Origin: an uncultured Gammaproteobacteria bacterium
Lineage (GTDB): Bacteria; Pseudomonadota; Gammaproteobacteria; Eutrophobiales; Eutrophobiaceae
DNA: 64,000 bases
NCBI GenBank assembly: GCA_958295485.1
Contig: OY282354.1
Coordinates: 2,812,042 to 2,876,041, forward strand
Direction of reading: 5' to 3'
Shown: positions 27,820-53,808 of the stretch, piece after piece
How the letters are laid out: every line of letters begins with the position of its first letter
Numbering within the stretch: the first letter of the stretch is position 1
Made by a program: the position numbers and the translations under genes
The notes under the pieces: model-generated
What the model was told of the DNA's origin: nothing
Database searches by the model: none
The model's input: the letters and a program-made list of their open reading frames with translations, nothing else

Positions 27820-27828
27820 TAGTTAGCG

Positions 27829-34646: not shown

Positions 34647-37460
34647 TCAGGAGAACAGGAAGTCTCCCGCGTCCAGGTCGGCAATATCGAAATTCTCAAG
34701 CCGGATCGTTCCCCCGCCATGGGCCACCAAGTCGATTGTAACACCGCCCGAGCCGGACGATACGACGAGTTCATCAAAGCCCGACAGACCAAAGGCGCTG
34801 AGGTCGATCAGGTTATCACCATCGGTAAAGTCGGCAATGACATCGTCGCCATGTCCAAAATCGAATATGAATACGTCGTCACCGCCCCTGCCCAAGAGCC
34901 TGTCATTGCCGCCACCACCGGACAGCCGGTTAGCGCCGTCGTCACCCCCCAGCACGTCCCCGTAGCCAGACCCCAGCACGTTCTCAAAGTTAACAATTAC
35001 ATCGCCTTCCGCATCGCCTCTCTTTACCGTGCCCTCTGACAGGTACACTATTACCCCCCGGTCCGACCCCGCATAGGACACCGTGTCCACGCCCGCGCCG
35101 CCGAACAGCTGGTCTGCGCCCGCGCCCCCTTCCAGCATATCGTCACCGGCCCCACCCAAGAGCCGGTCATTGCCGCCACCACCGGACAGCCGGTTGGCGC
35201 CGTCGTCACCCCCCAGCACGTCCCCGTGAACAGACCCCAGCACGTTCTCAAAGTTAACAATCACATCGCCCTGCGCATCGCCTCTCTTTACCGTGCCCTC
35301 CGACAGGTACACTGTTACCCCCCGGTCCGACCCCGCATAGGACACCGTGTCCACGCCCGCGCCGCCGAACAGCTGGTCTGCGCCCGCACCCCCTTCCAGC
35401 ATATCGTCACCGGCCGCGCCCAAGAGCCTGTCATTGCCGCCACCACCGGACAGCCGGTTGGCGCCGTCGTCACCCCCCAACACGTCCCTGTGAACAGACC
35501 CCAGCACGTTCTCAAAGTTAACAATCACATCGCCCTGCGCATCGCCTCGCTTTACCGTGCCCTCCGACAGGTACACGATTACCCCCAGGTCCGACCCCGC
35601 ATAGGACACCGTGTCCACGCCCGCGCCGCCAAGCAACCGGTCCGCGCCGGCGCCCCCGTCTAACATGTCATCACCATCGCCACCGGACAGCCGATTGGCG
35701 CTGCCATCACCCCCCAGTACATCCTCGTAACCAGATCCCAGCACGTTCTCAACGTCAACAATCACATCACCCTCGGCATGACCACCCTCTCCCGTGCCTG
35801 CCTCGAGATCCACCATCACCGCTCCGTCCGAACTACTATAGGACACCGTGTCTACGCCAGCGCCGCCAAGCAGCCGGTCCGCGCCCGCGCCCCCCTCCAG
35901 CACGTCGTCGCCACCCCTGCCCGAGAGATTGTCATTGCCACCACCACCGGACAGCCGGTTGGCGCCGTCGTCACCTTCCAAAACATCCTCATATCCAGAC
36001 CCCAGCACGTTCTCAACATCCACAATCACATCACCCTCGGCGTGACCACCCTCTCCCGTGCCCGTCTCGAGATCCACCGTCACTGCCTCGTCCGACCCAC
36101 TATAGGACACCGTGTCCATGCCCGCGCCGCCGTCCAGCTGGTCCGCGCCAACGCCCCCCTCCAACACGTCGGCGCCACCCCTGCCCGAGAGATTGTCATT
36201 GCCGCCACCACCGGACAGCCGATTGTCGTCGTCGTCACCCCCCAGCACGTCCCCGTAACCAGACCCCTGCACGTTCTCAACATCCACAATCACATCACCC
36301 TCCGCATGGCCTCCCGCCACTGTGCCCGTCTCAAGGTCCACTGTCACCGCTTCGTCCGACCCGCTATATAACACCGTGTCAGCGCCAAGACCACCCTCCA
36401 ACCGGTCGGCGCCGGCGCCCCCCTCCAACACGTCGTCACCGCCATTACCCCACAACTCATCATTGCCCGCGCCCCCCACCAGACGATTCACAACAGCATT
36501 GCCAATTATCCTGTCGTTGCCAGACCCGGCAATGACATTCTCAATCCAGGTATCACGCGCAATCACCACGTTGCCAACGAAGCCGTAAACATCCGAAATG
36601 CCCTCCGGACGCAAGTCAATCCGCTGGTCAAAGATATCCGTGCGCCCGTCCAGCGTGTCGCTGCCACCCGTGTCGTAGATCGTCAGCGTCACCGGCCAGT
36701 CAAGAGAAAAGTCCTCGGTCACCTGTGCAAAAAGCTGACCGAGGTAACCACCCACGTTGGATTCGTAACCATAGACGGTATCGCCGGCATTGATGTCAGT
36801 GGGCGCCCCATAGAGATTCTGGATCGCGATGATGTCCGCGATCATCGGTGTAACGACGTAAGCATAGCTCGCATTGATGTAGGTGTTCTCGGTCTGGCTG
36901 AAGTAGGACATGACCGTCGCTTGCCAGGAGTCGCCCGGGAATATGTTGTCGGCGCCGTAGGCGCCAGAACTGTTATAGGGCCCCGCGTGGCCCAGGCCGA
37001 GCGCGTGACCGATCTCGTGGATGTAGGTGGAGAAGCTGTAACTGTCAATTGTTGAGCCGTTGGCATCAAGCCAGTTCGTCGAGACATTGACGTGCGAGGA
37101 AATGATTTGGCTGCCCGACCAACTCGTGGATGCAAAGGCGCCTTCTTCTGCATCATCGAAGGTGATGTCGGCATCACCCCTCACGAACCGGAAGTCGATG
37201 TCGGTGACGTTAGTCCAGGCCTCCAGCGCCCAACGGGCAAGCTGCTGGCCTGCGGCGGTCAGACCGGTGATGTCGGCGTTCAGCGTACCGCCGGGCGCCA
37301 CGTCGAAGGCGTGACGGGAACCGCCATCCCACTCCCAATAACCGTCGGCCAGGTAGTCGGCAATTTGATCATAGTTGACTTTGGGGGGTTCGTTTCCCCC
37401 TGATGATTGGGTTTCAGCGCCCGTCACCGCCACGCCGTGATTGCTTTTCGGAATTGTCAT
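34647..37460 (-). CDS. secreted serralysin-family (M10B) zinc metalloprotease with an extended RTX calcium-binding repeat region and a C-terminal T1SS signal
   Basis: HEIGHALGLGH zinc motif plus ATVMSY Met-turn. Dozens of GGxGxDxL nonapeptides sit in about 7 tandem 88-aa modules. The acidic C-terminus is ...DLDAGDFLFS. Confidence 0.9.
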   Translation of the reverse strand: MTIPKSNHGVAVTGAETQSSGGNEPPKVNYDQIADYLADGYWEWDGGSRHAFDVAPGGTLNADITGLTAAGQQLARWALEAWTNVTDIDFRFVRGDADITFDDAEEGAFASTSWSGSQIISSHVNVSTNWLDANGSTIDSYSFSTYIHEIGHALGLGHAGPYNSSGAYGADNIFPGDSWQATVMSYFSQTENTYINASYAYVVTPMIADIIAIQNLYGAPTDINAGDTVYGYESNVGGYLGQLFAQVTEDFSLDWPVTLTIYDTGGSDTLDGRTDIFDQRIDLRPEGISDVYGFVGNVVIARDTWIENVIAGSGNDRIIGNAVVNRLVGGAGNDELWGNGGDDVLEGGAGADRLEGGLGADTVLYSGSDEAVTVDLETGTVAGGHAEGDVIVDVENVQGSGYGDVLGGDDDDNRLSGGGGNDNLSGRGGADVLEGGVGADQLDGGAGMDTVSYSGSDEAVTVDLETGTGEGGHAEGDVIVDVENVLGSGYEDVLEGDDGANRLSGGGGNDNLSGRGGDDVLEGGAGADRLLGGAGVDTVSYSSSDGAVMVDLEAGTGEGGHAEGDVIVDVENVLGSGYEDVLGGDGSANRLSGGDGDDMLDGGAGADRLLGGAGVDTVSYAGSDLGVIVYLSEGTVKRGDAQGDVIVNFENVLGSVHRDVLGGDDGANRLSGGGGNDRLLGAAGDDMLEGGAGADQLFGGAGVDTVSYAGSDRGVTVYLSEGTVKRGDAQGDVIVNFENVLGSVHGDVLGGDDGANRLSGGGGNDRLLGGAGDDMLEGGAGADQLFGGAGVDTVSYAGSDRGVIVYLSEGTVKRGDAEGDVIVNFENVLGSGYGDVLGGDDGANRLSGGGGNDRLLGRGGDDVFIFDFGHGDDVIADFTDGDNLIDLSAFGLSGFDELVVSSGSGGVTIDLVAHGGGTIRLENFDIADLDAGDFLFS
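34850..36420. repeat. about 7 tandem 264-bp near-identical repeats inside the RTX protease gene
   Basis: The nested reverse-frame ORFs MLTLRTCWGL... recur with ends at 34996, 35260 and 35524 (period 264). Protein modules DTVSY.GSD..V.V.L..GT...GDA.GDVIV..ENVLGS...DVLGGDDGANRLSGGGGND repeat almost verbatim. Confidence 0.8.
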
Positions 37461-37479
37461 GTCTCTTTCCTCTTTACCG

Positions 37480-37917
37480 TCAGAAGACGGGATAGCTCAC
37501 TTTCAAAAGACCCCGGACGAATTGCTGGTAAGCGCTCGGACCCAGCGGCGCATCCATGCCCCAGATCTCGACGGGTGGACCTGTCGTCCGGCCCGCGCCG
37601 CTTTTCTGCCCTGCCACCCCCCAGGTTAAACGCCCCTCCCAGCTATGGGGCTCAGTGCGTAGCACCTCGAGCACAATGTCTCGCGCCCCCGCAGGATAGG
37701 GTTCGGACTGAACGCGCCGCTGAACCACGCGGCCTGGCTCTCGCTCGCTGAGTTCTGCTTCGAGTACGGCGCAAAGCTCCGTAACAACCGCCTCGTCAGT
37801 ATTTGTCTCGCCATGGCAGGATAACACAATCGGCGTCGCATCCCCCCACGCCGCTAGCGCCATCCCCAAGACAAGGCCGGCGCCCAGAAACTGTGTCCGT
37901 GAGGGAAGCCTATTCAC
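37480..37917 (-). CDS. small secreted protein of unknown function; candidate cognate periplasmic protease inhibitor
   Basis: 145 aa with a signal peptide (LGAGLVLGMALAAWG) and two Cys. It ends 19 bp before the RTX protease start and is co-oriented with it. No confident similarity to AprI/Inh was recognised. Confidence 0.35.
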   Translation of the reverse strand: MNRLPSRTQFLGAGLVLGMALAAWGDATPIVLSCHGETNTDEAVVTELCAVLEAELSEREPGRVVQRRVQSEPYPAGARDIVLEVLRTEPHSWEGRLTWGVAGQKSGAGRTTGPPVEIWGMDAPLGPSAYQQFVRGLLKVSYPVF

Positions 37918-37928: not shown

Positions 37929-38774
37929 TCAGTCATGGTGAACACCCTGATCTTCAGGCCATTGTCCTTCGACTCCTGAAAGTATTCTCTCTACTAATTC
38001 CTTGTCAGCCGGGGTATCCACGTCGATGCTGGCGCGGGCAAACGGCAACTCGACGAAATTCACCCTGACTTCAGTGTTTTTAAAAACAGAACGCCTGGCT
38101 TGATCAATACTCAATAATCCGAAGAAATATTTTACCAGCGCGCTAAAACCAAACAGTCTGACAACTATTTGCCAGGGTTTTTTACGATTCGCTTCAACCC
38201 GGCGCCAGAATGAAATAATGCCTCTGCCTCTCCTGGTGGAAACAGCATATAAATTACAGCTACAGAATTCACCATCAGAAAACCGCAGGACAGTGCGCTG
38301 CGCGCCCGGATACGTCTCTTTAACCAGGCTGTAATTTACCAGCCCGATATTGAAGTCAACGCGACTTTCATCCACTCTGTCTAAAAAACAATCAAGCGCG
38401 TCTACGTCCAACAAAGCGTGGTCTGCCGTTGTTATTAAAACAAGTGAATCAGGATCAATCTTTTCCAGGCCTGCCCGTATGCTATTACTGAGGCTTTTTT
38501 CGCCGGAGGTCCAGGTGACATTATTTTGTTTAATGAATTGTTGCAATCGAGGACAGCCATCAACGGCCGATTGAGACGGACCACATAGCACATACGAATC
38601 AATGCGTTCACATGCTTCCAGCGCATTTATTACCCGGATGATCATCGGTGTTCCCAATATCGGCGCTAATGCCTTGCATTCAGAGTTGGAAACACGCGCA
38701 ACGGCATCGTTGTCCGTCCGGTCACCGGCCAGCAATAACGCTACGATTTCCCGCCCGTTTTCTTTTTTCACCAC
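37929..38774 (-). CDS. MobA-like NTP-transferase-fold protein (NTP_transf_3-type nucleotidyltransferase)
   Basis: IVALLLAGDRTDNDAV...KALAPILGTPMI N-terminus and LITTADHALLDVDAL block resemble MobA/CofC-type guanylyl/cytidylyl-transferases. 281 aa. Confidence 0.45.
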   Translation of the reverse strand: MVKKENGREIVALLLAGDRTDNDAVARVSNSECKALAPILGTPMIIRVINALEACERIDSYVLCGPSQSAVDGCPRLQQFIKQNNVTWTSGEKSLSNSIRAGLEKIDPDSLVLITTADHALLDVDALDCFLDRVDESRVDFNIGLVNYSLVKETYPGAQRTVLRFSDGEFCSCNLYAVSTRRGRGIISFWRRVEANRKKPWQIVVRLFGFSALVKYFFGLLSIDQARRSVFKNTEVRVNFVELPFARASIDVDTPADKELVERILSGVEGQWPEDQGVHHD

Positions 38775-38856: not shown

Positions 38857-39996
38857 TCATAAGTATTTTTGGTATATCCGGTAAGTTTTGTACAAGCTGC
38901 TCCCTATCCTCTCGAGGATGCTGCGCATCCCCAGGTTGTCTTCCAGAATCCATGACATCTCCACCGCTTCGACCCCCCGGGCCATGAGCGCCTCCTTGAC
39001 GCAATTTATCACTAAAAAGGCTAATGCCATTCCCAGGGGCGTGTTTTGCAATACCTTCCTGACACCCATTAACGGCACTCTTCCCGTTTTGATTTCCTGT
39101 TTTTTCAAGGCCCGAATTAACCTGAATATGCCCAGTGGCAATAATCTGCCATCCAGGCCCTTCAAAACCTCATTCAAATTGGGCAACGCCACGATAAAAG
39201 CGACCGGCGTTCCTTCATACTCCGCAATATAGACGTAATCATCCGGGACGAATAATCGTAGACTCGCTCCCAGCTCGGCGAACTCCGCCTGCGTGATGGG
39301 GGTAAACCCCCAGTTATCAGACCAGGCGTCATTGAAAATATTCCTGATAAGCTCCAATTCCTGTTTGAATTTTTTTCGATTCAGTTCTCTCAAGGTGACG
39401 GATTTTCCATACCTGTCGACCAGGGCTCGCATGACGCGGGGCGCGGTAAAATCGGTTTTGACCCAATAGGCGTACAGGTCTTTTACCGCGCAGTACCCCT
39501 GTTGTTCCAGCAATTCGCCGTACCATTCACGGTTATGGGGCATCATCAATGCTGGGGGAGTGTCAAATCCATCCACCAGCAGACCGCATTCCTGGTTGAT
39601 GGAAAAATTGAAGGGGCCTGTAACGACTTCGGTCTGTTGTTGCAGCAGCCAACCCTCGCTCTTTGCCACGAGCGCGCTGGCTACGTCATGGTTATTTTCA
39701 TACTCCAATAATCCGAAGTGACCGGATTTCACGGAATAATGGCGGCGATGCAATTCATCAACCTGGGCGCTGACCCTGCCCACAGGCTGGTTGCCCCGAT
39801 AAGCAACCCACGCTTGCCACCGGCCATGGGCAAAATAAGGATTTAAAGAGGAAAAATGCAGTCTTCGCTCCAATTTCAGCGGAGGGACCCAATTGGGATC
39901 ATCTGCATATATCTGCCAGGGCACGCGGATAAATGCCGCCAGGCGACGCCGATCGCTGACAGGCAAGACCCGTATGCTGCCAGAAGTAGCCGCCAA
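38857..39996 (-). CDS. GNAT-fold acyltransferase-like protein (FemAB/BioF2-like); candidate bacterial ceramide synthase
   Basis: 379-aa soluble protein with an acetyltransferase-like C-terminal half (...VAFIVALPNLNEV...). It is divergently adjacent to the spt/acp/acyl-ACP-synthetase/reductase set. The function is inferred from context only. Confidence 0.4.
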   Translation of the reverse strand: MAATSGSIRVLPVSDRRRLAAFIRVPWQIYADDPNWVPPLKLERRLHFSSLNPYFAHGRWQAWVAYRGNQPVGRVSAQVDELHRRHYSVKSGHFGLLEYENNHDVASALVAKSEGWLLQQQTEVVTGPFNFSINQECGLLVDGFDTPPALMMPHNREWYGELLEQQGYCAVKDLYAYWVKTDFTAPRVMRALVDRYGKSVTLRELNRKKFKQELELIRNIFNDAWSDNWGFTPITQAEFAELGASLRLFVPDDYVYIAEYEGTPVAFIVALPNLNEVLKGLDGRLLPLGIFRLIRALKKQEIKTGRVPLMGVRKVLQNTPLGMALAFLVINCVKEALMARGVEAVEMSWILEDNLGMRSILERIGSSLYKTYRIYQKYL

Positions 39997-40166
39997 CGCT
40001 TCCCCCCTTTATAATCCTTGCCGCGCCATTACCGCGGGCTGATAGCCCGCTTCACTAAAGAAAAGCAAGAATTCTTCTCAACTTTGAAGCACAACTGATT
40101 AAATTAACTGGAAAAATCATTTTAGTAGTGTAAACTGCGCCTATTTTTACCATAATAATCAGCGGA

Positions 40167-40619
40167 ATGACAGAAGATATTAGCATCCCGAATAAGACGA
40201 TGCTGAAATTCGGGGCGCCGGAGACCAGTATTCACTCCTATTCCTCCTGGTTGGTGTTACTGCGTCCGGTCCAAGTAACGTTGGGCGCCCTTGTACTGGT
40301 CGCCCGTGAGCCAGTGACTGCATTTTCACAGCTCAGCCCGGCTGGTTTTACTGAACTTGCCAAAGTCACGCATGACGTTGAGACAGTATTATCTCATCTC
40401 TTTCACTATGATAAACTGAACTACCTGATGCTGATGATGATTGACCCTGACGTCCATTTTCATGTGATACCCCGTTACGCAAAAAATCAGCAGTATGCCG
40501 CCCGGGATTTTTTCGATTTTGCCTGGCCCGGGCCACCAGATCTGGGACAAAATAATAAGGTCGATGATGAAATTTTTAATCATCTGCGGGATGAATTGAA
40601 GGCCAACTGGCCGGCTTGA
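40167..40619 (+). CDS. HIT-family (histidine triad) nucleotide-binding protein
   Basis: HFHVIPR histidine-triad motif. 150 aa. Confidence 0.65.
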   Translation: MTEDISIPNKTMLKFGAPETSIHSYSSWLVLLRPVQVTLGALVLVAREPVTAFSQLSPAGFTELAKVTHDVETVLSHLFHYDKLNYLMLMMIDPDVHFHVIPRYAKNQQYAARDFFDFAWPGPPDLGQNNKVDDEIFNHLRDELKANWPA

Positions 40620-40860
40620 GTGTGATAAGTAATGGATATAAAAGGATGCACGTTTTTACAAGGTGGTGTAATATTCCGTGTTGTGCTTCTTGGGAGGAGG
40701 GGTATGATAAATGGTTTTTTTATAGCAACTATTCATTTCTTTAACAGAACAGCTTAAGAGTTTTTTGCTTTTGCATGGATATTTGATATATTGTGATATG
40801 ATAGAAAATAAATCTATCGCCGTTAACGGACGTAAAAAATAAGACAGAGGTTTATCAGCC

Positions 40861-42612
40861 GTGAACCGAAAAGCAACGACCACTGCTAATGTACTAGCGC
40901 AAAATTTAGCGGGTTTTCCCAGTTTGTCTGAGGCGTTGGACTACGCAGCCGCCGGTGTTACCGGATGTAATTTTTATGATGCAAGGGGAAAACTCTCTGT
41001 AGTTTTACCTTATAGTGAGCTACAGCAACAAGCGAAAATTACCGCCCGGCGTCTCTTACAACTCAATTTAAAACGCGGTGATCATGTTGCCCTGGTCGCC
41101 GATACCCATCCTGATTTCATTGTCCTGTTCTTTGCCTGCCAGTACATCGGTCTTGTGCCATTCGCAATGCCAATACCATTGAATTTGGGCAGCCACGCCG
41201 TTTATGTTCAACAACTCCGCGGCTTGCTGACCGGTGGCAATGCAAAGGTGGCTATAGCCCCCAAAGAATTCATCGGTTTTTTAGAAGAAGCGACGGTTGA
41301 TGATAAAACCCTCGAGTGGGTTGGAACACCGGAGCAATTAGCGACCATTCCCCCATTAGACCATCCCCTTAGTCCAAGCAAACCCAACGAACCTGCGTAC
41401 CTGCAATTTACCTCGGGCAGCACCAGGTTCCCTCAAGGAGTCGTTATTACCGGTAAAGCGGTAATGAGTAACCTGCAAGGAATAGTGAGAACCGGTTTAA
41501 AGGTCCACCATGGTGACCGTTGCGCGTCCTGGTTGCCGTTTTACCATGACATGGGGTTGGTCGGATTTGTCCTGGGTCCAATCGTATCCCAGTTATCAGT
41601 GGATTATTTACGTACCCGTGATTTTGCAATCCGTCCCCTGCAGTGGTTACACCTAATCAGCCGTAACCGCTGTACCATCGCATTTGCGCCACCCTTCGGC
41701 TATGAGCTTTGCACCCGCCGAATTCGTAAAGCGGATCTGCAAAAATTGAACCTGGCCAGTTGGCGCATTGCCGGCATCGGCGCCGAGATGCTTCGCTCCA
41801 GCACCTTTGATAATTTTGCGGCAAAGATGACTGAAACAGGTTTTGACTCCAAGGCTTTTTTACCTTGCTATGGACTTGCCGAAGCTTCGCTTGCAGCTAC
41901 GTTTTCGGAACTGGATCGCGGTCTGAACGTAATGTCTATCGACGCGCTGACCATGGCCGAGCGAGGCACTGCTGTGCGGGTTAAATCGGATCACAGAAAA
42001 GTGAATGAAATCGTAAATTGCGGCCGCGCCATTCCTGATCATGACATCAAGATCGTCGATAACAAAGGAAGCTCCCTGCCTGATCTGCGAGTCGGCAGGA
42101 TCCTGATAAAAGGGCCCAGCCTGATGAGCGGCTATTTAAACGATCAACAATCAACCGACCGGGTTTTATTGGATGACGACTGGCTGGACACTGGCGACCT
42201 GGGTTATTTATTCGAGCATAACCTTTATTTAACCGGGCGGCGTAAAGACATCATCATTGTAAACGGCAGAAATATTCGCGCCCAGGATCTCGAAGAGATC
42301 GCAGAAGACCTGGACGAGGTAAGAATGGGTGAGGCCTCCGCGTTCGACACTGAAGATACCGATGGAAGGCAAACTGTCGTATTAGTGGTTGAATGTCGTC
42401 TTACAGACAGCACGACCAGACAATCATTAATTAAACGCCTGCAAAGAAAAGTTTACGAAGGCTTTGGAATTTATTGCTATGTGGATTTGGTAGTGCCGCA
42501 TACGCTGCCACGCACCTCCTCAGGGAAACTATCCCGTGTCGCCGCGCGTAAAGGGTTCATGGAAAGAGTAGACCTGAAGCAGACCGATTCAGGGCAGCTG
42601 GAAACCGGATAA
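40861..42612 (+). CDS. fatty acyl-AMP ligase-type adenylating enzyme (acyl-ACP synthetase candidate)
   Basis: FTSGSTRFPQGV (AMP-binding core A3) and GDLGYL...GRRKDIIIVNGRNI, SSGKLSR (A8/A10) motifs. GTG start. 583 aa. An ACP gene lies two genes downstream. Confidence 0.8.
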   Translation: MNRKATTTANVLAQNLAGFPSLSEALDYAAAGVTGCNFYDARGKLSVVLPYSELQQQAKITARRLLQLNLKRGDHVALVADTHPDFIVLFFACQYIGLVPFAMPIPLNLGSHAVYVQQLRGLLTGGNAKVAIAPKEFIGFLEEATVDDKTLEWVGTPEQLATIPPLDHPLSPSKPNEPAYLQFTSGSTRFPQGVVITGKAVMSNLQGIVRTGLKVHHGDRCASWLPFYHDMGLVGFVLGPIVSQLSVDYLRTRDFAIRPLQWLHLISRNRCTIAFAPPFGYELCTRRIRKADLQKLNLASWRIAGIGAEMLRSSTFDNFAAKMTETGFDSKAFLPCYGLAEASLAATFSELDRGLNVMSIDALTMAERGTAVRVKSDHRKVNEIVNCGRAIPDHDIKIVDNKGSSLPDLRVGRILIKGPSLMSGYLNDQQSTDRVLLDDDWLDTGDLGYLFEHNLYLTGRRKDIIIVNGRNIRAQDLEEIAEDLDEVRMGEASAFDTEDTDGRQTVVLVVECRLTDSTTRQSLIKRLQRKVYEGFGIYCYVDLVVPHTLPRTSSGKLSRVAARKGFMERVDLKQTDSGQLETG

Positions 42613-42621
42613 CGGGTTAAA

Positions 42622-43542
42622 ATGTCGAAGCAGGTGGCGCTGACAGGAGCCACAGGCTTCATTGGAAGGAACCTGCTCACTTCACTGGTTAAATCAAGGG
42701 TCCCGACGCGGGCGTTAACGCGCCGGCAACAAACCGGGTCTGAATTGTCCGGGCTTGTTCATTGGATCAACGGCGATTTAAACAATCATTCCGCATTAAA
42801 TGAATTAGTCGAAGGCTGCGCTTCCGTAATACATTGCGCCGGCGTCGTCAGGGGAAATTCACTGGAAGATTTTTTGGAAGTCAACCTCAAGGGAACTGAA
42901 AATCTTCTTAATGAAATCTGCAAAAAGGCATATAAACCAAAATTCCTCCTGATCTCATCGCTCGCCGCGCGCTACCCTGATTATTCCTGGTATGCCCAGA
43001 GTAAATCACTGGCGGAAACATTGCTGCTGTCGGAGAAGCATTCCGGGTTGCCCCGGACGGTCTACCGCCCAACCGCGGTTTACGGTCCCGGCGATAAGGA
43101 AATGCGTCCCTTATTCAGCGCCATGCGTCATGGTTTCTTGTTGGCGCCGAAAGTAGCTGACTCAAGGATCAGCCTGCTCCACATTGATGACTTGGTGAAT
43201 GCCGTCTTAAAATGGTTAACGGCAAAAAATACCGGGGGCATATTTGAGTTGGACGACGGTACTGAAGATGGTTACCAATGGAAAGACATCGTGGCCATTG
43301 GACAGGACACCTGGAATAATTCGATAAAACAGGTCCGGGTTCCAATTCCATTATTAAACACTTTCGCCCATATTAATCTCCTGCTGGCCAGGATTTTTCG
43401 GTATCCGGCCATGCTGACTCCGGGTAAAATCAATGAGATTACCCATAAGGATTGGGTATGCGATAATGCTCCCTTGACAACCTGTCTGGGATGGGAACCA
43501 AAAATAAATTTAATCGATGCGATTAATGGGGCTTCAATTTAA
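42622..43542 (+). CDS. NAD(P)-dependent epimerase/dehydratase-family reductase (ceramide/3-ketosphinganine reductase candidate)
   Basis: ALTGATGFIGRNL Rossmann motif and YAQSK catalytic YxxxK. 306 aa. Confidence 0.7.
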   Translation: MSKQVALTGATGFIGRNLLTSLVKSRVPTRALTRRQQTGSELSGLVHWINGDLNNHSALNELVEGCASVIHCAGVVRGNSLEDFLEVNLKGTENLLNEICKKAYKPKFLLISSLAARYPDYSWYAQSKSLAETLLLSEKHSGLPRTVYRPTAVYGPGDKEMRPLFSAMRHGFLLAPKVADSRISLLHIDDLVNAVLKWLTAKNTGGIFELDDGTEDGYQWKDIVAIGQDTWNNSIKQVRVPIPLLNTFAHINLLLARIFRYPAMLTPGKINEITHKDWVCDNAPLTTCLGWEPKINLIDAINGASI

Positions 43543-43628
43543 TCCATTTAGAGGCAGCCCTCGCGCCGGCCCTGGACAGGGCCGGCGCATACCAAGGTCG
43601 GGGATGATTTAAATTCGGGGAATGACCT

Positions 43629-43883
43629 ATGCCTTCAAGTTATGAAGAAATATCGACAAAGATCACGAGTGAGCTATCCGGCCTCGTTCCGCCGGGCGTC
43701 AGATTAAGCGATGATTCCGAACTGGCTACGGAGCTCGGGCTGGATTCATTCAAGGTCCTGGACCTGTTGCTGGACATCGAAGATGAGTTCGACATAACCA
43801 TGCCCGTGAATCTCCTCGCAGACGTTCACACCGTTAAAGACCTGGTGGATAAGATCCACGAAGTAGTCAATTCTTCCCCATGA
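43629..43883 (+). CDS. acyl carrier protein
   Basis: 84 aa with an ELGLDSFKVLDLL phosphopantetheine-attachment-like DS motif and the acidic helix-II pattern. Confidence 0.8.
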   Translation: MPSSYEEISTKITSELSGLVPPGVRLSDDSELATELGLDSFKVLDLLLDIEDEFDITMPVNLLADVHTVKDLVDKIHEVVNSSP

Positions 43884-43890
43884 GCGCCCC

Positions 43891-45084
43891 ATGAGCCTGT
43901 TCGCCAAATTTCAACCCCTGGCGCAAGACCGGGAAGCCCTGCTTTCACAGGGCGTCGACCCCTTCGGGGCGCCCATCGAAGAAATCTACTCGCCCACGGA
44001 GGCCAGGATAAACGGGAAGAAGACGATTCTTGCCGGCACCAACAATTACCTGGGACTTACTTTCGATAAAAAGTGCCTCGATGCAGCCCATGCGGCGATT
44101 GATGAACAAGGCACGGGAACAACGGGCTCAAGGATGGCGAACGGCAGTTTCTCGGGGCACCGGGCGCTGGAAAAAGAAATAGCCACCTTTTATACCTGTG
44201 AAAAAGCCATTGTATTTACCACCGGTTACCAGGCAAACCTGGCCGTGATCTCCGGCTTGGCCAATAATGAAGATGTTATCCTTATCGACGCCGACAGCCA
44301 TGCCAGTATTTATGACGGCTGCCAGCTGAGCGGGGCAGACATAGTCCGGTTTCGCCACAATAATCCCGATGATTTACACAAACGACTGGAACGACTGGGG
44401 GAGCGCGCGGCAAACGCCCTGATCATCATCGAAGGTATTTACAGCATGTTGGGGGACAGGGCCCGGATCCGGGAAATCATCGAAGTCAAAAAATCCTTTG
44501 GCGCATTTTTATTAGTTGACGAAGCGCACTCACTGGGGGTGCTGGGGGAAAAAGGCAGGGGGCTGGTTGAAGAAGCCGGCGTTATCGGCGAGGCGGATTT
44601 CATTGTCGGCACCTTCAGTAAAAGCCTGGCAAGCACCGGGGGATACTGTGTCAGCAATCACCCGCAGCTTGATTTCATCCGCTATGCCAGCAGGCCCTAC
44701 GTTTTTACGGCGTCATCTCCTCCCTCAGTGATAGCGTCCACGCGGGAAGCCTTGAGGAGGATAGAGAAGGGCGGCGACCTTCGCGCAACGCTTTGGAAAC
44801 ATACCAATCGCCTGTACAAACACCTGCAGGATTCAGGCTATGAACTGGGTCCTGAACCCTGCCCGGTGATCGCGGCGCTCCTGCACACCCGCGAGCAGGC
44901 GCTGAGGTTATGGCGCGGCCTTTACGAACATGGAATATACGTGAATTTGATCTTCCCTCCTGCAACGCCGGGCGGCAAGTCGCTCGTGCGCATCAGCGTC
45001 AGCGCCGCGCACACCGCTGAGCAAATCGAAAAAATATGCCATGCCTTCACCACCTTAGCCGAAACGGCGTCAGCTTCTGATTGA
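43891..45084 (+). CDS. spt: serine palmitoyltransferase (alpha-oxoamine synthase family)
   Basis: Block-for-block similarity to recalled Sphingomonas paucimobilis SPT: GTNNYLGL, GSRMANGSF, DSHASIYDGCQ, DIVRFRHNN, EGIYSMLGD, LVDEAHSLG, VGTFSKS (PLP lysine), YVFTASSPPSV and GIYVNLIFPPATP. Confidence 0.85.
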   Translation: MSLFAKFQPLAQDREALLSQGVDPFGAPIEEIYSPTEARINGKKTILAGTNNYLGLTFDKKCLDAAHAAIDEQGTGTTGSRMANGSFSGHRALEKEIATFYTCEKAIVFTTGYQANLAVISGLANNEDVILIDADSHASIYDGCQLSGADIVRFRHNNPDDLHKRLERLGERAANALIIIEGIYSMLGDRARIREIIEVKKSFGAFLLVDEAHSLGVLGEKGRGLVEEAGVIGEADFIVGTFSKSLASTGGYCVSNHPQLDFIRYASRPYVFTASSPPSVIASTREALRRIEKGGDLRATLWKHTNRLYKHLQDSGYELGPEPCPVIAALLHTREQALRLWRGLYEHGIYVNLIFPPATPGGKSLVRISVSAAHTAEQIEKICHAFTTLAETASASD

Positions 45085-45135
45085 AAAGGGTTGGGTGAGA
45101 GCTGCGGGTTATAACCCGTCTTGAAATAAAGCGCC

Positions 45136-46476
45136 ATGCCGGTAACGCCTGAAAGTACAGACAGGTTCGAAGCAGCGGTGGATGACGGCCTGTTCCGTCG
45201 TGTTTTTAAAAATTCCGCCATGTTGACCGGTGGAAAAATATACACGGCCCTGGTGGGACTGATCTACCTGGCGCTGGCCACCCGGTCCCTGGGCGCGCAT
45301 GACTTCGGCGTGCTTATCCTCATCCATGCTTACGTCGTCGCAATCCGGGATTTTACGACGCTGAAAACGGCGCAGTGCGTCGTCAGATATGGCGCTATTT
45401 GCCTGGAAAGCAACGATAAGGCAGGTTTTCAAAAGCTGGTCAAATTCACCACGCTGCTGGATTTCGGCTTTTGTCTTGCGGGAACATTATTGGGCATGTT
45501 GGCCGTTGCCGTAGTCGGGCCGTGGTTCAGCATAACGCCGGAATTGATGCCCATGGCGACAATTTATTGCTGCGCCATCCTGTTCAGCTTCAAGTCAACC
45601 CCCCTGGGATTACTGCGTCTGTTCAACCGTTTCGACCTCGTCGCAATCATGCTCATGGTCGTTCCGTCAATCCGCCTGATCGGCGCCTGCGCGGCATTCA
45701 TGTTTTACCGGGACATCGTCTCATTTCTTTTCGTCTGGTTTATCGCCGGCGCCTGTAACTGTCTCGCCACCGTTTATTTCGGCTGGCGCGAATTCAGGCG
45801 GCAGGGCTTCGTTGAAGGAATGGATTATCGGCTCGATCAACTGACGCGCCCCCATGAAAACATATGGTCTTTTGTCTGGACCTCGAACATTCACAGGACG
45901 CTGGTTACTTCCCAGGTGCACTTCTCGACCCTCGCCGTCGGTTTTTTACTAGGCCCGGTCGGGGCCGGTCTTTTCAAGGTCGCCCAGGAGTCTGCGTCCA
46001 TATTAATCAAACCCGCGCAGTTATTTAATGAAACGATCTACCCGGAAATGGCCAAAATCGCCACCGGCGGGCGTGGCCGTCAACTCTGGAAAGTAATCAC
46101 CCACTCGGCCATGGTTGCCGGGGCTATAGCCGGCGTCATTTTTCTGGTCGTGTTCGTCTTCGGCAAACCTTTGTTGAACCTGATCTTCGGCGCCGAGTTC
46201 ATCGGTTCCTATAACGTATTGATCCTGCTCATGATCGCGGCGGTAATCACCATGGCCACGTTTGCCCTGGACCCGGCCATGTACGCCATAGGCAGGCCCG
46301 CCATAGCCATGAACATCAGGATACTCACGTCACTCCTCCATGTAGGGGTAATGATAATGCTACTGATGGAAATCGGATTGATCGGAGCGGGCATTGCCGG
46401 CATCATCAGCAGCTTTACAACGGCCTTCTTGTTGCTGTTTTATGCCAACCGCCTGATAAAAAACAAGTCCTCCTGA
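45136..46476 (+). CDS. MOP-superfamily (Wzx/polysaccharide-biosynthesis-protein-type) flippase
   Basis: 446 aa, about 12-14 TM, with an N-terminal ...MLTGGKIYTALVGLIYLALATRSLG typical of PST-family exporters. Confidence 0.6.
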   Translation: MPVTPESTDRFEAAVDDGLFRRVFKNSAMLTGGKIYTALVGLIYLALATRSLGAHDFGVLILIHAYVVAIRDFTTLKTAQCVVRYGAICLESNDKAGFQKLVKFTTLLDFGFCLAGTLLGMLAVAVVGPWFSITPELMPMATIYCCAILFSFKSTPLGLLRLFNRFDLVAIMLMVVPSIRLIGACAAFMFYRDIVSFLFVWFIAGACNCLATVYFGWREFRRQGFVEGMDYRLDQLTRPHENIWSFVWTSNIHRTLVTSQVHFSTLAVGFLLGPVGAGLFKVAQESASILIKPAQLFNETIYPEMAKIATGGRGRQLWKVITHSAMVAGAIAGVIFLVVFVFGKPLLNLIFGAEFIGSYNVLILLMIAAVITMATFALDPAMYAIGRPAIAMNIRILTSLLHVGVMIMLLMEIGLIGAGIAGIISSFTTAFLLLFYANRLIKNKSS

Positions 46477-53731: not shown

Positions 53732-53808
53732 GCCCTGATAGCTCAGATGGATAGAGCGTCCGCCTCCTAAGCGGAAGGTCAGAGGTTCGAATCCTCTTCA
53801 GGGCGCCA
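53732..53808 (+). tRNA. tRNA-Arg (anticodon CCU)
   Basis: GCCCTGATAGCTCAGATGGATAGAGCGTCCGCCTCCTAAGCGGAAGGTCAGAGGTTCGAATCCTCTTCAGGGCGCCA folds as a cloverleaf with anticodon loop CUCCUAA. Confidence 0.9.

What the first reader, a model, noticed from the sequence alone, without database searches (positions are those of the whole stretch)
38857..46476. Ceramide/sphingolipid-type lipid biosynthesis cluster (Spt + ACP + acyl-ACP synthetase + reductase + GNAT candidate ceramide synthase + flippase) in an apparently gammaproteobacterial context
What the sequence shows directly:
- The ORF at 43891-45084 matches serine palmitoyltransferase block for block, including the PLP-lysine motif and DSHASIYDGCQ, LVDEAHS and VGTFSKS. 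It does not match BioF, Kbl or CqsA.
- Immediately upstream, in one orientation, are a dedicated ACP, an epimerase/dehydratase-family reductase and a FAAL-type adenylating enzyme.
- Divergently, next to a HIT protein, sits a 379-aa GNAT-fold protein.

What established knowledge adds: this is the gene set described for de novo ceramide synthesis in Caulobacter crescentus. That set comprises Spt, ACP, acyl-ACP synthetase, CerR reductase and the GNAT-type bacterial ceramide synthase bCerS.

What is inference:
- The GNAT and reductase assignments rest on context only.
- The lineage call (gamma-like gltX/tRNA/lptFG/DUF1302) is a guess.

Sphingolipid synthesis is rarely documented in this part of the bacterial tree. 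Here the cluster sits beside an RTX protease, sulfation genes and nucleotidyltransferases that could build a polar headgroup. A very AT-rich 240-bp intergenic region (40620-40860) precedes the FAAL gene, consistent with a separately regulated or acquired block.
Basis: partly seen in the sequence, partly recalled or inferred. Interest (0 to 1): 0.8.

Follow-up and report, generated by a model that had tools for sequence, protein, structure and literature searches.

The report
Bacterial ceramide (sphingolipid) synthesis and export locus
This is a real gene cluster for making and exporting ceramide-type membrane lipids, but clusters of this kind are already described in Caulobacter, E. coli, Nitrosomonas and Pseudomonas, so it is a new example of a known system and not a surprise.

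Summary

**The five ceramide genes**
- The AOS enzyme is a serine palmitoyltransferase. It passes the NCBIfam Spt equivalog cutoff (616 vs 500 bits) and fails the BioF, Kbl and CqsA cutoffs. It is 56% identical to the Spt of the E. coli yghO–spt cluster.
- The 379-aa GNAT is a bCerS/YghO-family protein. It is 46% identical to YghO and 44% identical to the positional CC_1154 ortholog in Phenylobacterium. Its model is a tandem-GNAT fold.
- AasR, CerR and AcpR match their E. coli counterparts at 48, 39 and 44% identity.

**The locus is larger than reported.** It runs from about 28.8 to 46.5 kb and carries homologs of 13 of the 17 Caulobacter CC_1152–CC_1168 genes. These include LptF2/G2, Tam41-like CpgC, two nucleotidyltransferases, a metallophosphoesterase and a HIT protein. 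An OlsC/LpxO-like hydroxylase is also present.

- The ceramide kinase CpgB and the CDP-alcohol transferase CpgA are absent, so the headgroup cannot be assumed to be CPG2.
- The RTX protease is a high-GC insertion that relatives lack.
- The sulfation genes are unrelated neighbours.
- The AT-rich spacer is a conserved leader, not an acquisition scar.

Such clusters are already published for beta- and gammaproteobacteria. The YghO gene is found in 4549 of 5426 complete E. coli genomes. Interest is low to moderate.

The parts
28768..29547 (-). Fe/2-oxoglutarate acyl-chain hydroxylase (OlsC/LpxO-like); probably hydroxylates a ceramide acyl chain
   Evidence: Pfam Asp_Arg_Hydrox 185 bits. The best NCBIfam hits are OlsC at 258 bits and LpxO at 141 bits, both below their cutoffs. 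It is 65% identical to the hydroxylase in the Pseudomonas plasmid sphingolipid cluster. It is also present in L004-L006 and L084.
29570..30529 (-). Tam41-like protein, homolog of Caulobacter CC_1161/CpgC
   Evidence: Pfam Tam41_Mmp37 27 bits against a cutoff of 24. Identity is 40% to the Pseudomonas plasmid cluster gene, 54% to L084 and 31% to the positional CC_1161 ortholog in Phenylobacterium L076. The ORF is intact with an ATG at 30529.
30636..31532 (+). Calcineurin-like metallophosphoesterase, CC_1158-like
   Evidence: Pfam Metallophos 56 bits. Identity is 37% to the positional CC_1158 ortholog in L076 and 64-67% to L004-L006.
31613..32674 (-). LptG paralog of the cluster-associated type (LptG2, CC_1155/1156-like); proposed sphingolipid extraction from the inner membrane
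   Evidence: NCBIfam LptG 296 bits. It scores 177 bits against E. coli cluster LptG2 and 123 bits against K-12 housekeeping LptG.
32671..33741 (-). LptF paralog of the cluster-associated type (LptF2)
   Evidence: NCBIfam LptF 313 bits. It scores 166 bits against E. coli cluster LptF2 and 67 bits against K-12 LptF.
33846..34592 (+). Sugar-phosphate-type nucleotidyltransferase, CC_1152-like
   Evidence: Pfam NTP_transferase 56 bits. Identity is 44% to the positional CC_1152 ortholog in L076 and 44% to the Pseudomonas plasmid 'phosphocholine cytidylyltransferase family' gene. CC_1152 is required for CPG2 formation in Caulobacter.
34647..37917 (-). Insertion that interrupts the locus and is not part of the pathway: a 937-aa RTX serralysin-type metalloprotease (34647-37460) plus a 145-aa protein with a hydrophobic, signal-peptide-like N-terminus (37480-37917)
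   Evidence: Pfam HemolysinCabind, Peptidase_M10_C and Peptidase_M10. GC is 61.5% and 62.8%, against 50.5-52.1% for the cluster. The insertion is absent from L004 and L005, where the MobA-like and NTP-transferase genes abut.
37929..38774 (-). MobA/CofC-like nucleotidyltransferase, CC_1153-like
   Evidence: Pfam NTP_transf_3 43 bits. Identity is 32% to the positional CC_1153 ortholog in L076. It lies within 400 bp of the GNAT in 51 of 80 related loci. A natural GNAT + MobA-like fusion protein exists, P0081.
38857..39996 (-). Bacterial ceramide synthase candidate (bCerS/YghO/CC_1154 family), an N-acyltransferase with a tandem GNAT fold
   Evidence: Identity is 46% to E. coli YghO over 373 aa and 49% to the Pseudomonas plasmid homolog. 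It is 44% identical to the positional CC_1154 ortholog in L076. The literature lists yghO as the ortholog of CC_1154. The AF2 model has pLDDT 79, and its top fold matches are tandem GNATs.
40167..40619 (+). HIT-family protein, CC_1157-like, with a degenerate His triad (HFHVIP)
   Evidence: Pfam HIT 22.5 bits against a cutoff of 21.5. Identity is 48% to the positional CC_1157 ortholog in L076 and 74-78% in L004, L005 and L007. The motif was read.
40620..40860 (+). AT-rich conserved leader/promoter region upstream of aasR
   Evidence: GC is 33.6%. It aligns with the equivalent spacers of L004, L005 and L007 at 76% mean column identity, with conserved blocks and a conserved GTG start. There is no Rfam match and no promoter consensus above chance.
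40861..42612 (+). AasR: fatty acyl-AMP ligase-type acyl-ACP synthetase (CC_1165-like)
   Evidence: NCBIfam NF006624 fatty acyl-AMP ligase, 798 bits against a cutoff of 600. It is 48% identical to the AasR gene of the E. coli cluster. The role of AasR was shown biochemically for Caulobacter and E. coli BL21.
42622..43542 (+). CerR: NAD(P)-dependent 3-keto reductase of the extended SDR/epimerase family (CC_1164-like)
   Evidence: Pfam Epimerase 85.5 bits. Identity is 39% to the E. coli cluster 'epi' gene and 34% to the positional CC_1164 ortholog in L076. The GATGFIG and YAQSK motifs are present.
43629..43883 (+). AcpR: dedicated acyl carrier protein (CC_1163-like)
   Evidence: Pfam PP-binding 41.5 bits. 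It is 44% identical to E. coli AcpR. The DSF phosphopantetheine-attachment motif is at residue 39.
43891..45084 (+). Spt: serine palmitoyltransferase (CC_1162-like)
   Evidence: NCBIfam NF047599, 616 bits against a cutoff of 500; the BioF, Kbl and CqsA models fall below their cutoffs. The best PDB match is S. wittichii SPT 2x8u at 458 bits. The PLP-Lys, His, Asp and Arg positions are conserved in the alignments. It is 56% identical to E. coli Spt.
45136..46476 (+). MOP/Wzx-type flippase (YghQ/CC_1166-like)
   Evidence: Pfam Polysacc_synt 42.9 bits against a cutoff of 28.2. It is 30% identical to the E. coli gene in the yghQ position over 414 aa. It is conserved next to spt in L004-L006.

Best explanation
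The region is the core of a roughly 17.7-kb sphingolipid locus (about 28.8-46.5 kb) of the Caulobacter CC_1152-CC_1166 / E. coli yghO-spt type.

**Ceramide synthesis (inferred from orthology to characterised enzymes)**
1. AasR adenylates a free fatty acid and loads it onto the dedicated carrier AcpR.
2. Spt condenses acyl-AcpR with L-serine to give 3-ketosphinganine.
3. The tandem-GNAT bCerS adds the amide-linked acyl chain.
4. CerR reduces the 3-keto group, giving dihydroceramide. The order of steps 3 and 4 is disputed in the literature.
5. An OlsC/LpxO-like dioxygenase probably hydroxylates an acyl chain.

**Export (inferred)**
- A MOP-type flippase moves the lipid across the inner membrane.
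- A dedicated LptF2/LptG2 pair extracts it towards the outer membrane.

**Headgroup (uncertain)**
- A partial CPG-type module is retained: Tam41-like CpgC, CC_1152- and CC_1153-like nucleotidyltransferases, a CC_1158-like metallophosphoesterase and a HIT protein.
- The ceramide kinase CpgB and the CDP-alcohol transferase CpgA are missing from the window.
- The final polar head is therefore either neutral, or an anionic phospho-head made with a kinase encoded elsewhere or by a different route. It cannot be assumed to be Caulobacter's CPG2.

**Shown here:** gene identities, orthology, synteny and the absence of cpgA/cpgB from the window.
**Inferred:** every enzymatic step and the product.
For: **Spt**
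- NCBIfam equivalog passed at 616 vs 500 bits; rival AOS models fall below their cutoffs.
- The PDB ranking places SPTs first.
- Catalytic residues are conserved.

**Window proteins against the E. coli cluster**

| Protein | Identity |
|---|---|
| Spt | 56% |
| AcpR | 44% |
| reductase | 39% |
| AasR | 48% |
| YghO | 46% |
| YghQ | 30% |
| LptF2 / LptG2 | 31% / 34% |

The Spt, AcpR and AasR of E. coli BL21 were characterised in vitro.

**Synteny**
- The Phenylobacterium locus L076 reproduces the published CC_1164 to CC_1152 gene order. Every window gene has its positional counterpart there.
- The same architecture occurs on the conjugative Pseudomonas plasmid pBYT5-2.
- It also occurs in three species-level relatives at 51-86% identity with all ORFs intact.

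**Other support**
- The GNAT model has a tandem-GNAT fold.
- A GNAT homolog lies within 10 kb of an Spt homolog in 33 of 80 related loci, 23 of the 41 that are full length.
- The LptF/G pair is closer to the cluster-type paralogs than to housekeeping LptFG.
- No kinase or CDP-alcohol transferase was found by tblastn or by a 120-sequence HMM that detects them in 32 other loci.
Against: - There is no lipid or enzyme data for this organism; every function is assigned by homology.
- C. crescentus sequences themselves could not be obtained. Orthology to CC_1154 and CC_1164 runs through a Caulobacteraceae MAG and through E. coli proteins that the literature equates with them.
- Loss of cpgB and cpgA, together with an RTX-protease insertion inside the locus, could mean the headgroup branch is decaying.
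- Only 64 kb of a roughly 3.6-Mb genome is visible, so absence of the kinase from the genome is not shown.
- A. vinelandii carries an aasR pseudogene, which shows that such clusters can be inactive.
Confidence: 0.85

Rival explanations
1. The locus makes the full Caulobacter-type anionic lipids CPG/CPG2. The ceramide kinase, and a CpgA-like transferase, are simply encoded elsewhere in the genome.
For: - CpgC-, CC_1152-, CC_1153- and CC_1158-like genes are retained intact here and in relatives.
- In other bacteria the sphingolipid genes are scattered over several regions.
- Relatives L004 and L005 still carry the CDP-alcohol transferase, and L084 carries both genes at the same position.
Against: - No CpgB-type kinase is present in the 64-kb window or within 10 kb of the GNAT in L004-L006.
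- A database search with the L084 kinase listed hits down to 37% identity. None lay on a contig with the length of the window genome or its clade members, and the next-best hit was only 48% identical.
- In Caulobacter, a cpgB deletion abolishes ceramide phosphate, CPG and CPG2.
Confidence: 0.25
2. The locus is a decaying remnant. The headgroup branch, and perhaps the whole pathway, is no longer functional after loss of cpgA/cpgB and insertion of an RTX protease.
For: - cpgB and cpgA have been deleted cleanly, leaving only 106 bp between Tam41 and the metallophosphoesterase.
- A foreign, high-GC insertion sits between the two nucleotidyltransferase genes.
- There is a precedent: aasR is a pseudogene in A. 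vinelandii.
Against: - All 15 locus genes are full-length ORFs with conserved motifs.
- The kinase-less arrangement is kept in at least three other species-level genomes at 51-86% amino-acid identity. This argues for purifying selection.
Confidence: 0.07
3. The AOS enzyme is not an Spt. The cluster would then make a different amino-ketone lipid, such as capnine-type sulfonolipid, a CAI-1-like signal, or a biotin or threonine-pathway intermediate.
For: All AOS enzymes share the PLP-lysine fold and the general motifs. BioF and Kbl models still score 309-341 bits.
Against: - Only the Spt equivalog cutoff is passed.
- SPT structures score 285-458 bits, against 197 for cysteate acyltransferase, 217 for Kbl, 172 for BioF and 120 for CqsA.
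- The dedicated AcpR, AasR, CerR and bCerS partners are all present in the canonical order.
Confidence: 0.03
4. The block is a recently acquired island, marked by the AT-rich spacer.
For: - The same cluster type sits on a conjugative Pseudomonas plasmid.
- The closest homologs outside the clade are Nitrosomonadaceae, so horizontal transfer has occurred at some point.
- The spacer has 33.6% GC.
Against: - The cluster's GC (50.5-52.1%) equals the window average of 52.6%.
- The locus and its flanks, gltX-cysC-3HCDH-cofE-cofD on one side and xdhC on the other, are syntenic in four related genomes.
- The spacer itself is conserved at 76% column identity.
- Only the RTX segment looks foreign.
Confidence: 0.08

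Closest known systems
Caulobacter crescentus sphingolipid region CC_1152-CC_1168 (spt, acpR, cerR, aasR, bcerS, cpgABC, lptF2G2, flippase). References: Olea-Ozuna 2021 and 2024 (PMC11324152), Stankeviciute 2022, Zik 2022 (PMC9393093).
   Same: Homologs of 13 of the 17 genes are present: CC_1166, 1165, 1164, 1163, 1162, 1161, 1158, 1157, 1156, 1155, 1154, 1153 and 1152. The aasR-cerR-acpR-spt order is the same, and so is the bcerS + CC_1153 pairing.
   Different: - It lacks CC_1160 (the ceramide kinase CpgB), CC_1159 (CpgA), CC_1167 and CC_1168/LptC2.
- It adds an OlsC/LpxO-like hydroxylase.
- It carries an RTX-protease insertion.
- Gene blocks are rearranged, and identities are only 31-54%.
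E. coli yghO-aasR-epi-acpR-spt-lptG2-lptF2...yghQ chromosomal cluster (ECD_02850-02854 in BL21; Padilla-Gomez 2022, PMC9386255)
   Same: The architecture is the same: a GNAT divergent from aasR-reductase-acpR-spt, with cluster-type LptF2/G2 and a MOP flippase nearby. Identities are 30-56%.
   Different: E. coli has no Tam41-like, nucleotidyltransferase, metallophosphoesterase, HIT or hydroxylase genes in its cluster. Instead it has YtfJ-family and ATP-binding proteins.
Pseudomonas sp. BYT-5 conjugative plasmid pBYT5-2 sphingolipid cluster (comparable to the contiguous A. vinelandii and P. luteola clusters)
   Same: It has the core five genes, the MobA-like NTP transferase, LptF/G, the Tam41-like gene, the hydroxylase (65% identical) and the CC_1152-like cytidylyltransferase.
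   Different: The plasmid cluster keeps the acylglycerol/ceramide kinase and the CDP-alcohol phosphatidyltransferase. It adds an ABC transporter and an ELM1/GtrOC1 glycosyltransferase, and it is plasmid-borne.
Eukaryotic de novo ceramide pathway (SPT, KDSR, Lag1/CerS)
   Same: The chemistry is the same overall: serine plus an acyl thioester gives 3-ketosphinganine, followed by reduction and N-acylation. The Spt is homologous to eukaryotic SPT subunits at 139-167 bits.
   Different: - The N-acyltransferase is a soluble tandem GNAT, not a Lag1-type membrane protein.
- The reductase belongs to the epimerase/extended-SDR family.
- The acyl donor is a dedicated acyl-ACP.
- The order of reduction and acylation may be reversed.

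Membership tests
Serine palmitoyltransferase (bacterial Spt, alpha-oxoamine synthase family) | Scores above the curated Spt equivalog threshold and below the thresholds of BioF, Kbl, ALAS and CqsA | tested here: met
   | Model | Bits | Cutoff |
|---|---|---|
| NF047599 (Spt) | 616.3 | 500 |
| bioF | 341 | 426 |
| Kbl | 309 | 460 |
| ALAS | 229 | 339 |
| CqsA-type | 213 | 428 |

Serine palmitoyltransferase (bacterial Spt, alpha-oxoamine synthase family) | PLP-binding lysine and the catalytic His/Asp/His/Arg positions seen in solved SPT structures | tested here: met
   GTFSKS, DSHASIYDG, LVDEAHS and the LVRISV arginine align with the corresponding stretches of the 2x8u and 2jg2 chains. The motifs were located.
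Serine palmitoyltransferase (bacterial Spt, alpha-oxoamine synthase family) | Closest to experimentally characterised SPTs rather than to other AOS enzymes | tested here: met
   PDB scores: S. wittichii SPT 458 bits, S. paucimobilis 406, Sphingobacterium 285. Against these: Kbl 217, cysteate acyltransferase 197, BioF 172, CqsA 120. It is 56% identical to E. coli Spt.
Serine palmitoyltransferase (bacterial Spt, alpha-oxoamine synthase family) | Condenses L-serine with a long-chain acyl thioester | not testable with these tools
   This needs an enzyme assay.
Bacterial ceramide synthase bCerS (CC_1154 / YghO family) | Full-length sequence homology to CC_1154 orthologs | tested here: met
   Identity is 46% to E. 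coli YghO over 373 aa, E = 2e-119; yghO is listed as the CC_1154 ortholog in PMC9386255. It is 44% identical to the gene at the CC_1154 position in Phenylobacterium L076. The C. crescentus sequence itself was not available.
Bacterial ceramide synthase bCerS (CC_1154 / YghO family) | GNAT-superfamily acyltransferase fold | tested here: met
   The AF2 model has pLDDT 79 and pTM 0.76. Its top Foldseek matches are tandem-GNAT enzymes: 5kf1, 7q3a, 2wpx and MshD, with E from 1e-15 to 1e-11. By sequence, the Pfam GNAT hit is marginal at 21.2 bits against a cutoff of 20.7.
Bacterial ceramide synthase bCerS (CC_1154 / YghO family) | Genomic linkage to spt and cerR | tested here: met
   It is divergent from aasR-cerR-acpR-spt here. 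An Spt homolog lies within 10 kb of the GNAT in 33 of 80 related loci, 23 of the 41 that are full length.
Bacterial ceramide synthase bCerS (CC_1154 / YghO family) | N-acylates 3-ketosphinganine or sphinganine | not testable with these tools
   This needs an enzyme assay or a knockout.
Ceramide reductase CerR (CC_1164 family) | Extended SDR/epimerase fold with a Rossmann GxxGxxG motif and a catalytic YxxxK | tested here: met
   Pfam Epimerase 85.5 bits. GATGFIG is at residue 9 and YAQSK at residue 124.
Ceramide reductase CerR (CC_1164 family) | Homology and position equivalent to CC_1164/ECD_02852, between aasR and acpR | tested here: met
   Identity is 39% to the E. coli cluster reductase over 302 aa and 34% to the positional ortholog in L076. 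The position between aasR and acpR is the same.
AasR/AcpR acyl-loading pair | FAAL-type adenylating enzyme next to a small ACP that has a phosphopantetheine-attachment serine, upstream of spt | tested here: met
   NF006624 scores 798 bits against a cutoff of 600. PP-binding scores 41.5 bits and the DSF motif is present. Identities to E. coli AasR and AcpR are 48% and 44%.
Caulobacter CPG/CPG2 headgroup pathway (CpgA, CpgB, CpgC) | Ceramide kinase CpgB (DAGK_cat/LCB5-type) present | tested here: not met
   tblastn found nothing below E = 1. A 120-sequence kinase HMM found no hit in the window, while it detected the kinase in 32 other loci. The test is limited to the 64-kb window.
Caulobacter CPG/CPG2 headgroup pathway (CpgA, CpgB, CpgC) | CDP-alcohol phosphatidyltransferase CpgA present | tested here: not met
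   There is no hit in the window. Relatives L004, L005 and L084 have the gene between the Tam41-like gene and the metallophosphoesterase.
Caulobacter CPG/CPG2 headgroup pathway (CpgA, CpgB, CpgC) | Tam41-like CpgC present | tested here: met
   The gene is at 29570-30529. Pfam Tam41_Mmp37 scores 27 bits. It is 31% identical to the positional CC_1161 ortholog.
Coenzyme F420 biosynthesis CofD/CofE (considered for the adjacent genes 26998-28779) | Pass the curated equivalog thresholds and resemble a solved CofD | tested here: met
   CofE TIGR01916 scores 277 bits against 181, and CofD TIGR01819 scores 279 against 257. The match to M. mazei CofD 3c3d is 198 bits with conserved motifs. Homologs at 52-53% identity lie in operons with CofC and FbiC. 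These genes are therefore filed as F420 genes, not as part of the lipid locus.

The most novel reading that the evidence does not exclude
In this clade the lost ceramide kinase and CpgA steps are bypassed by an F420-like headgroup route.
1. The CofC-like nucleotidyltransferase (CC_1153 homolog) would activate a phospho-acid such as phosphoglycerate, phosphoenolpyruvate or phospholactate.
2. The adjacent CofD would transfer it directly onto the ceramide 1-hydroxyl.
3. CofE would add glutamate.

The product would be a previously unseen anionic sphingolipid made without a kinase.

**Not excluded because:**
- The cofE-cofD pair lies directly beside the locus in every clade member seen.
- No cofC or fbiC is nearby.
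- The clade lacks the kinase.

**Unlikely because:**
- CofD and CofE pass the F420 equivalog cutoffs.
- CofD keeps strong similarity (198 bits) and shared motifs with archaeal CofD.
- Its sister sequences sit in true F420 operons.
- Unrelated flanking genes (gltX, cysC, xdhC) are equally syntenic.
Probability: 0.05. Interest if true: 0.75.

Novelty: new member of a known kind. Interest (0 to 1): 0.3.

Why it matters
The locus adds an uncultured, metagenome-abundant proteobacterial clade to the list of likely sphingolipid producers. More than 100 protein clusters at 58-79% identity belong to this clade.

It also shows a natural variant of the Caulobacter-type locus. The core ceramide and transport genes are kept, but the ceramide kinase and CpgA are gone. 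This could help separate the genes needed for ceramide synthesis and export from those needed for the phosphoglycerate headgroup.

It does not open a new question. The gene set, its presence in beta- and gammaproteobacteria, and its horizontal mobility are all already documented.

Tried and rejected
**Searches that gave nothing**
- Exact-sequence look-ups of the window Spt and GNAT found no contig on record.
- Cluster look-ups returned no names or organism.
- The window's own genome was not among the species representatives; the best match was 75% identical.
- The key paper, Stankeviciute 2022, is not held, neither by DOI nor by PMC id.
- C. crescentus protein sequences could not be fetched. 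Orthology was argued through E. coli and a Phenylobacterium MAG.
- An Rfam scan of 22-48 kb found only two tRNAs and no riboswitch in the AT-rich leader.
- The sigma-70 and terminator scan of the leader was at chance level.

**Readings considered and rejected**
- BioF, Kbl, CqsA or cysteate acyltransferase as the identity of the AOS enzyme.
- Housekeeping identity for LptFG.
- The RTX protease and the sulfation genes as headgroup enzymes.
- N-terminal truncation of the Tam41-like gene. The upstream tblastn extension crosses a stop codon, and the ATG at 30529 is a plausible start.
- CofD/CofE as lipid enzymes. This is kept only as a low-probability reading.

Full report
**1.

| Gene | Coordinates | Strand | Length |
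|---|---|---|---|
| GNAT | 38857-39996 | − | 379 aa |
| HIT | 40167-40619 | + | 150 aa |
| adenylating enzyme | 40861-42612 | + | 583 aa |
| epimerase-family reductase | 42622-43542 | + | 306 aa |
| ACP | 43629-43883 | + | 84 aa |
| alpha-oxoamine synthase | 43891-45084 | + | 397 aa |
| MOP-type flippase | 45136-46476 | + | 446 aa |

The quoted motifs are present, as are the ACP DSF serine motif and the reductase motifs GATGFIG and YAQSK. The spacer 40620-40860 has 33.6% GC, against 52.6% for the window.

**2. Identity of the core genes.**

*Spt.*
- The AOS protein passes NCBIfam's curated serine-palmitoyltransferase equivalog NF047599 (616 bits, cutoff 500).
- It falls below the cutoffs for BioF (341 vs 426), Kbl (309 vs 460), ALAS (229 vs 339) and the CqsA-type synthase (213 vs 428).
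- Among solved structures it is closest to S. wittichii SPT (458 bits), then S. paucimobilis SPT (406) and Sphingobacterium SPT (285). It is far from Kbl (217), cysteate-C-fatty-acyltransferase (197), BioF (172) and CqsA (120).
- The PLP lysine and the His/Asp/His/Arg positions align with these structures.

*Adenylating enzyme.* It passes the fatty acyl-AMP ligase model (798 vs 600 bits).

*GNAT.*
- By sequence it gives only a marginal Pfam hit (21.2 vs 20.7 bits) and no PDB match.
- It belongs to a very large family: at least 7974 clusters at 90% identity.
- Its AlphaFold model (pLDDT 79, pTM 0.76) is a tandem-GNAT acyltransferase fold. The closest structures are glucosamine N-acetyltransferase, MAB_4324, the clavulanate tandem GNAT and MshD.

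**3. Direct comparison with characterised systems.**

A tblastn search against plasmid records showed that the GNAT is 46% identical to E. coli YghO.

The E. coli chromosome carries yghO divergent from a fatty acyl-AMP ligase, an epimerase-family protein, an ACP and a gene that PGAP already names spt. These are followed by second copies of lptG and lptF and by a polysaccharide-type flippase. The yghO gene is found in 4549 of 5426 complete E. coli genomes.

Padilla-Gomez et al. (PMC9386255) list ECD_02850 (yghO) to ECD_02854 as the orthologs of Caulobacter CC_1154, CC_1165, CC_1164, CC_1163 and CC_1162. They characterised E. coli BL21 Spt, AcpR and AasR in vitro.

Window proteins against this E. 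coli set:

| Protein | Identity |
|---|---|
| Spt | 56% |
| AcpR | 44% |
| reductase | 39% |
| AasR | 48% |
| YghO | 46% |
| flippase | 30% |
| LptF2 / LptG2 | 31% / 34% |

A scan of one genome per species with the GNAT returned 80 loci. One of them, from a Phenylobacterium (Caulobacteraceae) MAG, reproduces the published CC_1164 to CC_1152 order gene for gene. The GNAT at its CC_1154 position is 44% identical to the window protein.

**4. The locus is much larger than the finding.**

Pfam and NCBIfam scans of the flanks show, leftwards from the GNAT:

| Coordinates | Gene | Caulobacter counterpart |
|---|---|---|
| 37929-38774 | MobA/CofC-like nucleotidyltransferase | CC_1153 |
| 33846-34592 | nucleotidyltransferase | CC_1152 |
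| 32671-33741 and 31613-32674 | LptF and LptG | CC_1155/1156 |
| 30636-31532 | metallophosphoesterase | CC_1158 |
| 29570-30529 | Tam41-like protein | CC_1161/CpgC |
| 28768-29547 | OlsC/LpxO-like acyl hydroxylase | none |

- Together with the HIT protein (CC_1157) and the flippase (CC_1166), 13 of the 17 genes of the Caulobacter region have homologs here.
- The LptF/G pair is closer to the cluster-associated E. coli paralogs (166 and 177 bits) than to K-12 housekeeping LptF/G (67 and 123 bits).
- The MobA-like gene lies within 400 bp of the GNAT in 51 of 80 related loci. A natural GNAT + MobA-like fusion protein exists. Both facts argue for functional coupling.
- The same extended architecture sits on a conjugative Pseudomonas plasmid.

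**5. What is missing, and what is inserted.**

*Missing genes.*
- Neither the ceramide kinase (CC_1160/CpgB) nor the CDP-alcohol transferase (CC_1159/CpgA) is in the window.
- tblastn with Pseudomonas and clade queries gives only noise.
- An HMM built from 120 cluster-type kinases hits 32 other loci but not the window or its closest relatives.
- A more distant clade member, L084, has Tam41-kinase-CDP-alcohol-transferase at exactly this position. L004 and L005 keep only the transferase. The window and L006 keep neither.
- Only 106 bp separates the Tam41-like gene from the metallophosphoesterase here, and the Tam41 ORF is intact.
- The L084 kinase is an orphan. Its next database relative is 48% identical, and no listed hit lies on a contig of the window clade.
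- In Caulobacter, a cpgB deletion abolishes ceramide phosphate, CPG and CPG2. The product here therefore cannot be assumed to be CPG2.

*Inserted genes.*
- The 937-aa RTX serralysin-type protease and a 145-aa protein with a hydrophobic, signal-peptide-like N-terminus occupy 34647-37917.
- They have 61.5-62.8% GC, against 50.5-52.1% for the locus.
- They are absent from relatives, where the two nucleotidyltransferase genes abut.
- They form an insertion at the 3' end of the GNAT-MobA operon, not a headgroup function.

**6. The other contextual claims.**

*Sulfation genes.*
- The APS kinase (24763-25401) belongs to a gltX-cysC-3HCDH block that is syntenic in L084.
- The sulfotransferase-domain protein (900-2564) lies about 26 kb to the left, next to glycosyltransferase and sugar-nucleotide genes.
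- Nothing links either gene to the lipid.

*AT-rich spacer.*
- It aligns with the equivalent spacers of three relatives at 76% column identity, with conserved blocks and a conserved GTG start.
- The locus has the same GC as the window.
- The spacer is therefore a conserved leader or promoter region, not an acquisition scar.
- No Rfam family matches it and no promoter consensus stands above chance.

*Lineage.*
- The closest genomes are MAGs labelled only 'Gammaproteobacteria bacterium' (69-75% GNAT identity).
- Nitrosomonadaceae follow at 56-60%.
- The best Spt model is the 'beta-proteobacterial' one.
- Classical gamma versus beta cannot be resolved with these tools.

**7. The adjacent cofE-cofD pair.**

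Genes 26998-27819 and 27829-28779 lie directly beside the locus in every clade member. The lipid locus also contains a CofC-like enzyme and lacks a kinase, so an F420-like headgroup route was considered. The evidence is against it:
- Both proteins pass the F420 equivalog cutoffs.
- CofD scores 198 bits against M. mazei CofD, with the shared motifs intact.
- Its 52-53% identical sisters sit in operons with Fno, and one of these operons also carries CofC and FbiC.
- Unrelated flanking genes are equally syntenic.

I keep it only as a 5% reading. It is testable by asking whether these genomes encode fbiC and cofC.

**8. Mechanism.**

The steps below are inferred from orthology:
1. AasR loads a fatty acid onto AcpR.
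2. Spt condenses acyl-AcpR with serine to give 3-ketosphinganine.
3. bCerS N-acylates.
4. CerR reduces. The order of steps 3 and 4 is disputed between the Klein and Geiger groups.
5. The dioxygenase hydroxylates an acyl chain.
6. The flippase and LptF2G2 export the lipid.
7. The retained CpgC-, CC_1152-, CC_1153-, CC_1158- and HIT-like proteins modify the head in a way that cannot be specified without the kinase.

**9. Novelty and score.**

The gene set, its co-occurrence rules and its presence in alpha-, beta- and gammaproteobacteria are published. Metagenomic surveys already report Spt-like proteins in MAGs from 38 bacterial phyla in the Black Sea.

This is a new member of a known kind, in an uncultured clade, with a reduced headgroup module as its only distinctive feature.
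- Interest: 0.3.
- Confidence in the core assignment: 0.85.

Noticed in passing
window 34647-37917 (-): A 937-aa RTX serralysin-type metalloprotease and an upstream 145-aa protein are inserted at the 3' end of the GNAT-MobA operon. The small protein has a hydrophobic, signal-peptide-like N-terminus and no family match. Intergenic gaps are only 11 and 19 bp. GC is 61.5-62.8%, against about 51% for the locus. The segment is absent in relatives. The small protein might be a protease inhibitor; this is untested.
   Followed up: partly
window 26998-28779 (+): A cofE-cofD pair that passes the F420 equivalog cutoffs has no cofC, fbiC or fno nearby. It lies directly beside the sphingolipid locus in every member of the clade seen (L004-L006, L084).
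   Followed up: partly
window 30530-30635; L084 12721-14830: The ceramide-kinase and CDP-alcohol-transferase genes have been deleted cleanly relative to L084. Only 106 bp remains between the Tam41-like gene and the metallophosphoesterase. Relatives show intermediate states: L004 and L005 keep only the transferase. The L084 kinase is short (274 aa) and has no close relative in the database.
   Followed up: yes
P0081 (JGI metagenome contig, 651 aa): This is a natural fusion of a bCerS-like GNAT (residues 5-379, 69% identical to the window GNAT) with a MobA/CC_1153-like nucleotidyltransferase (residues 384-651, 54% identical). It suggests the two enzymes act together. A missed stop codon in a short contig cannot be excluded.
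   Followed up: partly
L002 (Pseudomonas sp. BYT-5 plasmid pBYT5-2, NZ_CP097491.1, 93990-123087): A complete sphingolipid cluster sits on a conjugative MOBP plasmid next to an IS481 transposase. It includes the core five genes, LptFG, the kinase, the Tam41-like gene, the hydroxylase, the CDP-alcohol transferase, an ABC transporter and an ELM1/GtrOC1 glycosyltransferase. This is direct evidence that such clusters are mobile.
   Followed up: partly
L003 (E. coli NZ_AP022222.1, 774700-795818): The yghO gene is found in 4549 of 5426 complete E. coli genomes. In this genome it flanks aasR, the reductase gene, acpR, spt, lptG2 and lptF2, and the locus lies next to glcC. PGAP already names the AOS gene spt.
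   Followed up: partly
window 40620-40860: The AT-rich leader upstream of aasR contains sequence blocks conserved across four genomes, for example TGTAATAT, TTTTAT and AATAAATCT. It has no Rfam match and no clear sigma-70 consensus. It may be a binding site for an unknown regulator.
   Followed up: partly
window 40167-40619 (+): The HIT-family protein has a degenerate histidine triad: HFHVIP, with the third His replaced. It is nevertheless conserved in sphingolipid loci from alpha- to gammaproteobacteria, in 12 of 80 loci. The Caulobacter authors considered CC_1157 probably unrelated to the pathway.
   Followed up: no
window 5-6705: A group of glycosyltransferase and sugar-nucleotide genes: a family-4 glycosyltransferase, a 554-aa fusion of a sulfotransferase domain with a capsule-synthesis domain (900-2564), a 544-aa protein with no family match, a UDP-glucose/GDP-mannose dehydrogenase and an epimerase/dehydratase. 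Together with the APS kinase at 24763-25401, this hints at a sulfated surface polysaccharide.
   Followed up: no
window 55200-59131 (+): A TetR regulator, an 813-aa MMPL/RND-type transporter with a sterol-sensing-like domain, and a LolA-like/DUF1329 protein. This is a putative lipid or hydrophobic-compound export module about 9 kb from the sphingolipid locus. No link between the two was tested.
   Followed up: no
window 22856-23022 (-) and 53732-53808 (+): tRNA-Glu(UUC) and tRNA-Ala(GGC) lie immediately downstream of gltX. tRNA-Arg(CCU) is at 53.7 kb.
   Followed up: no
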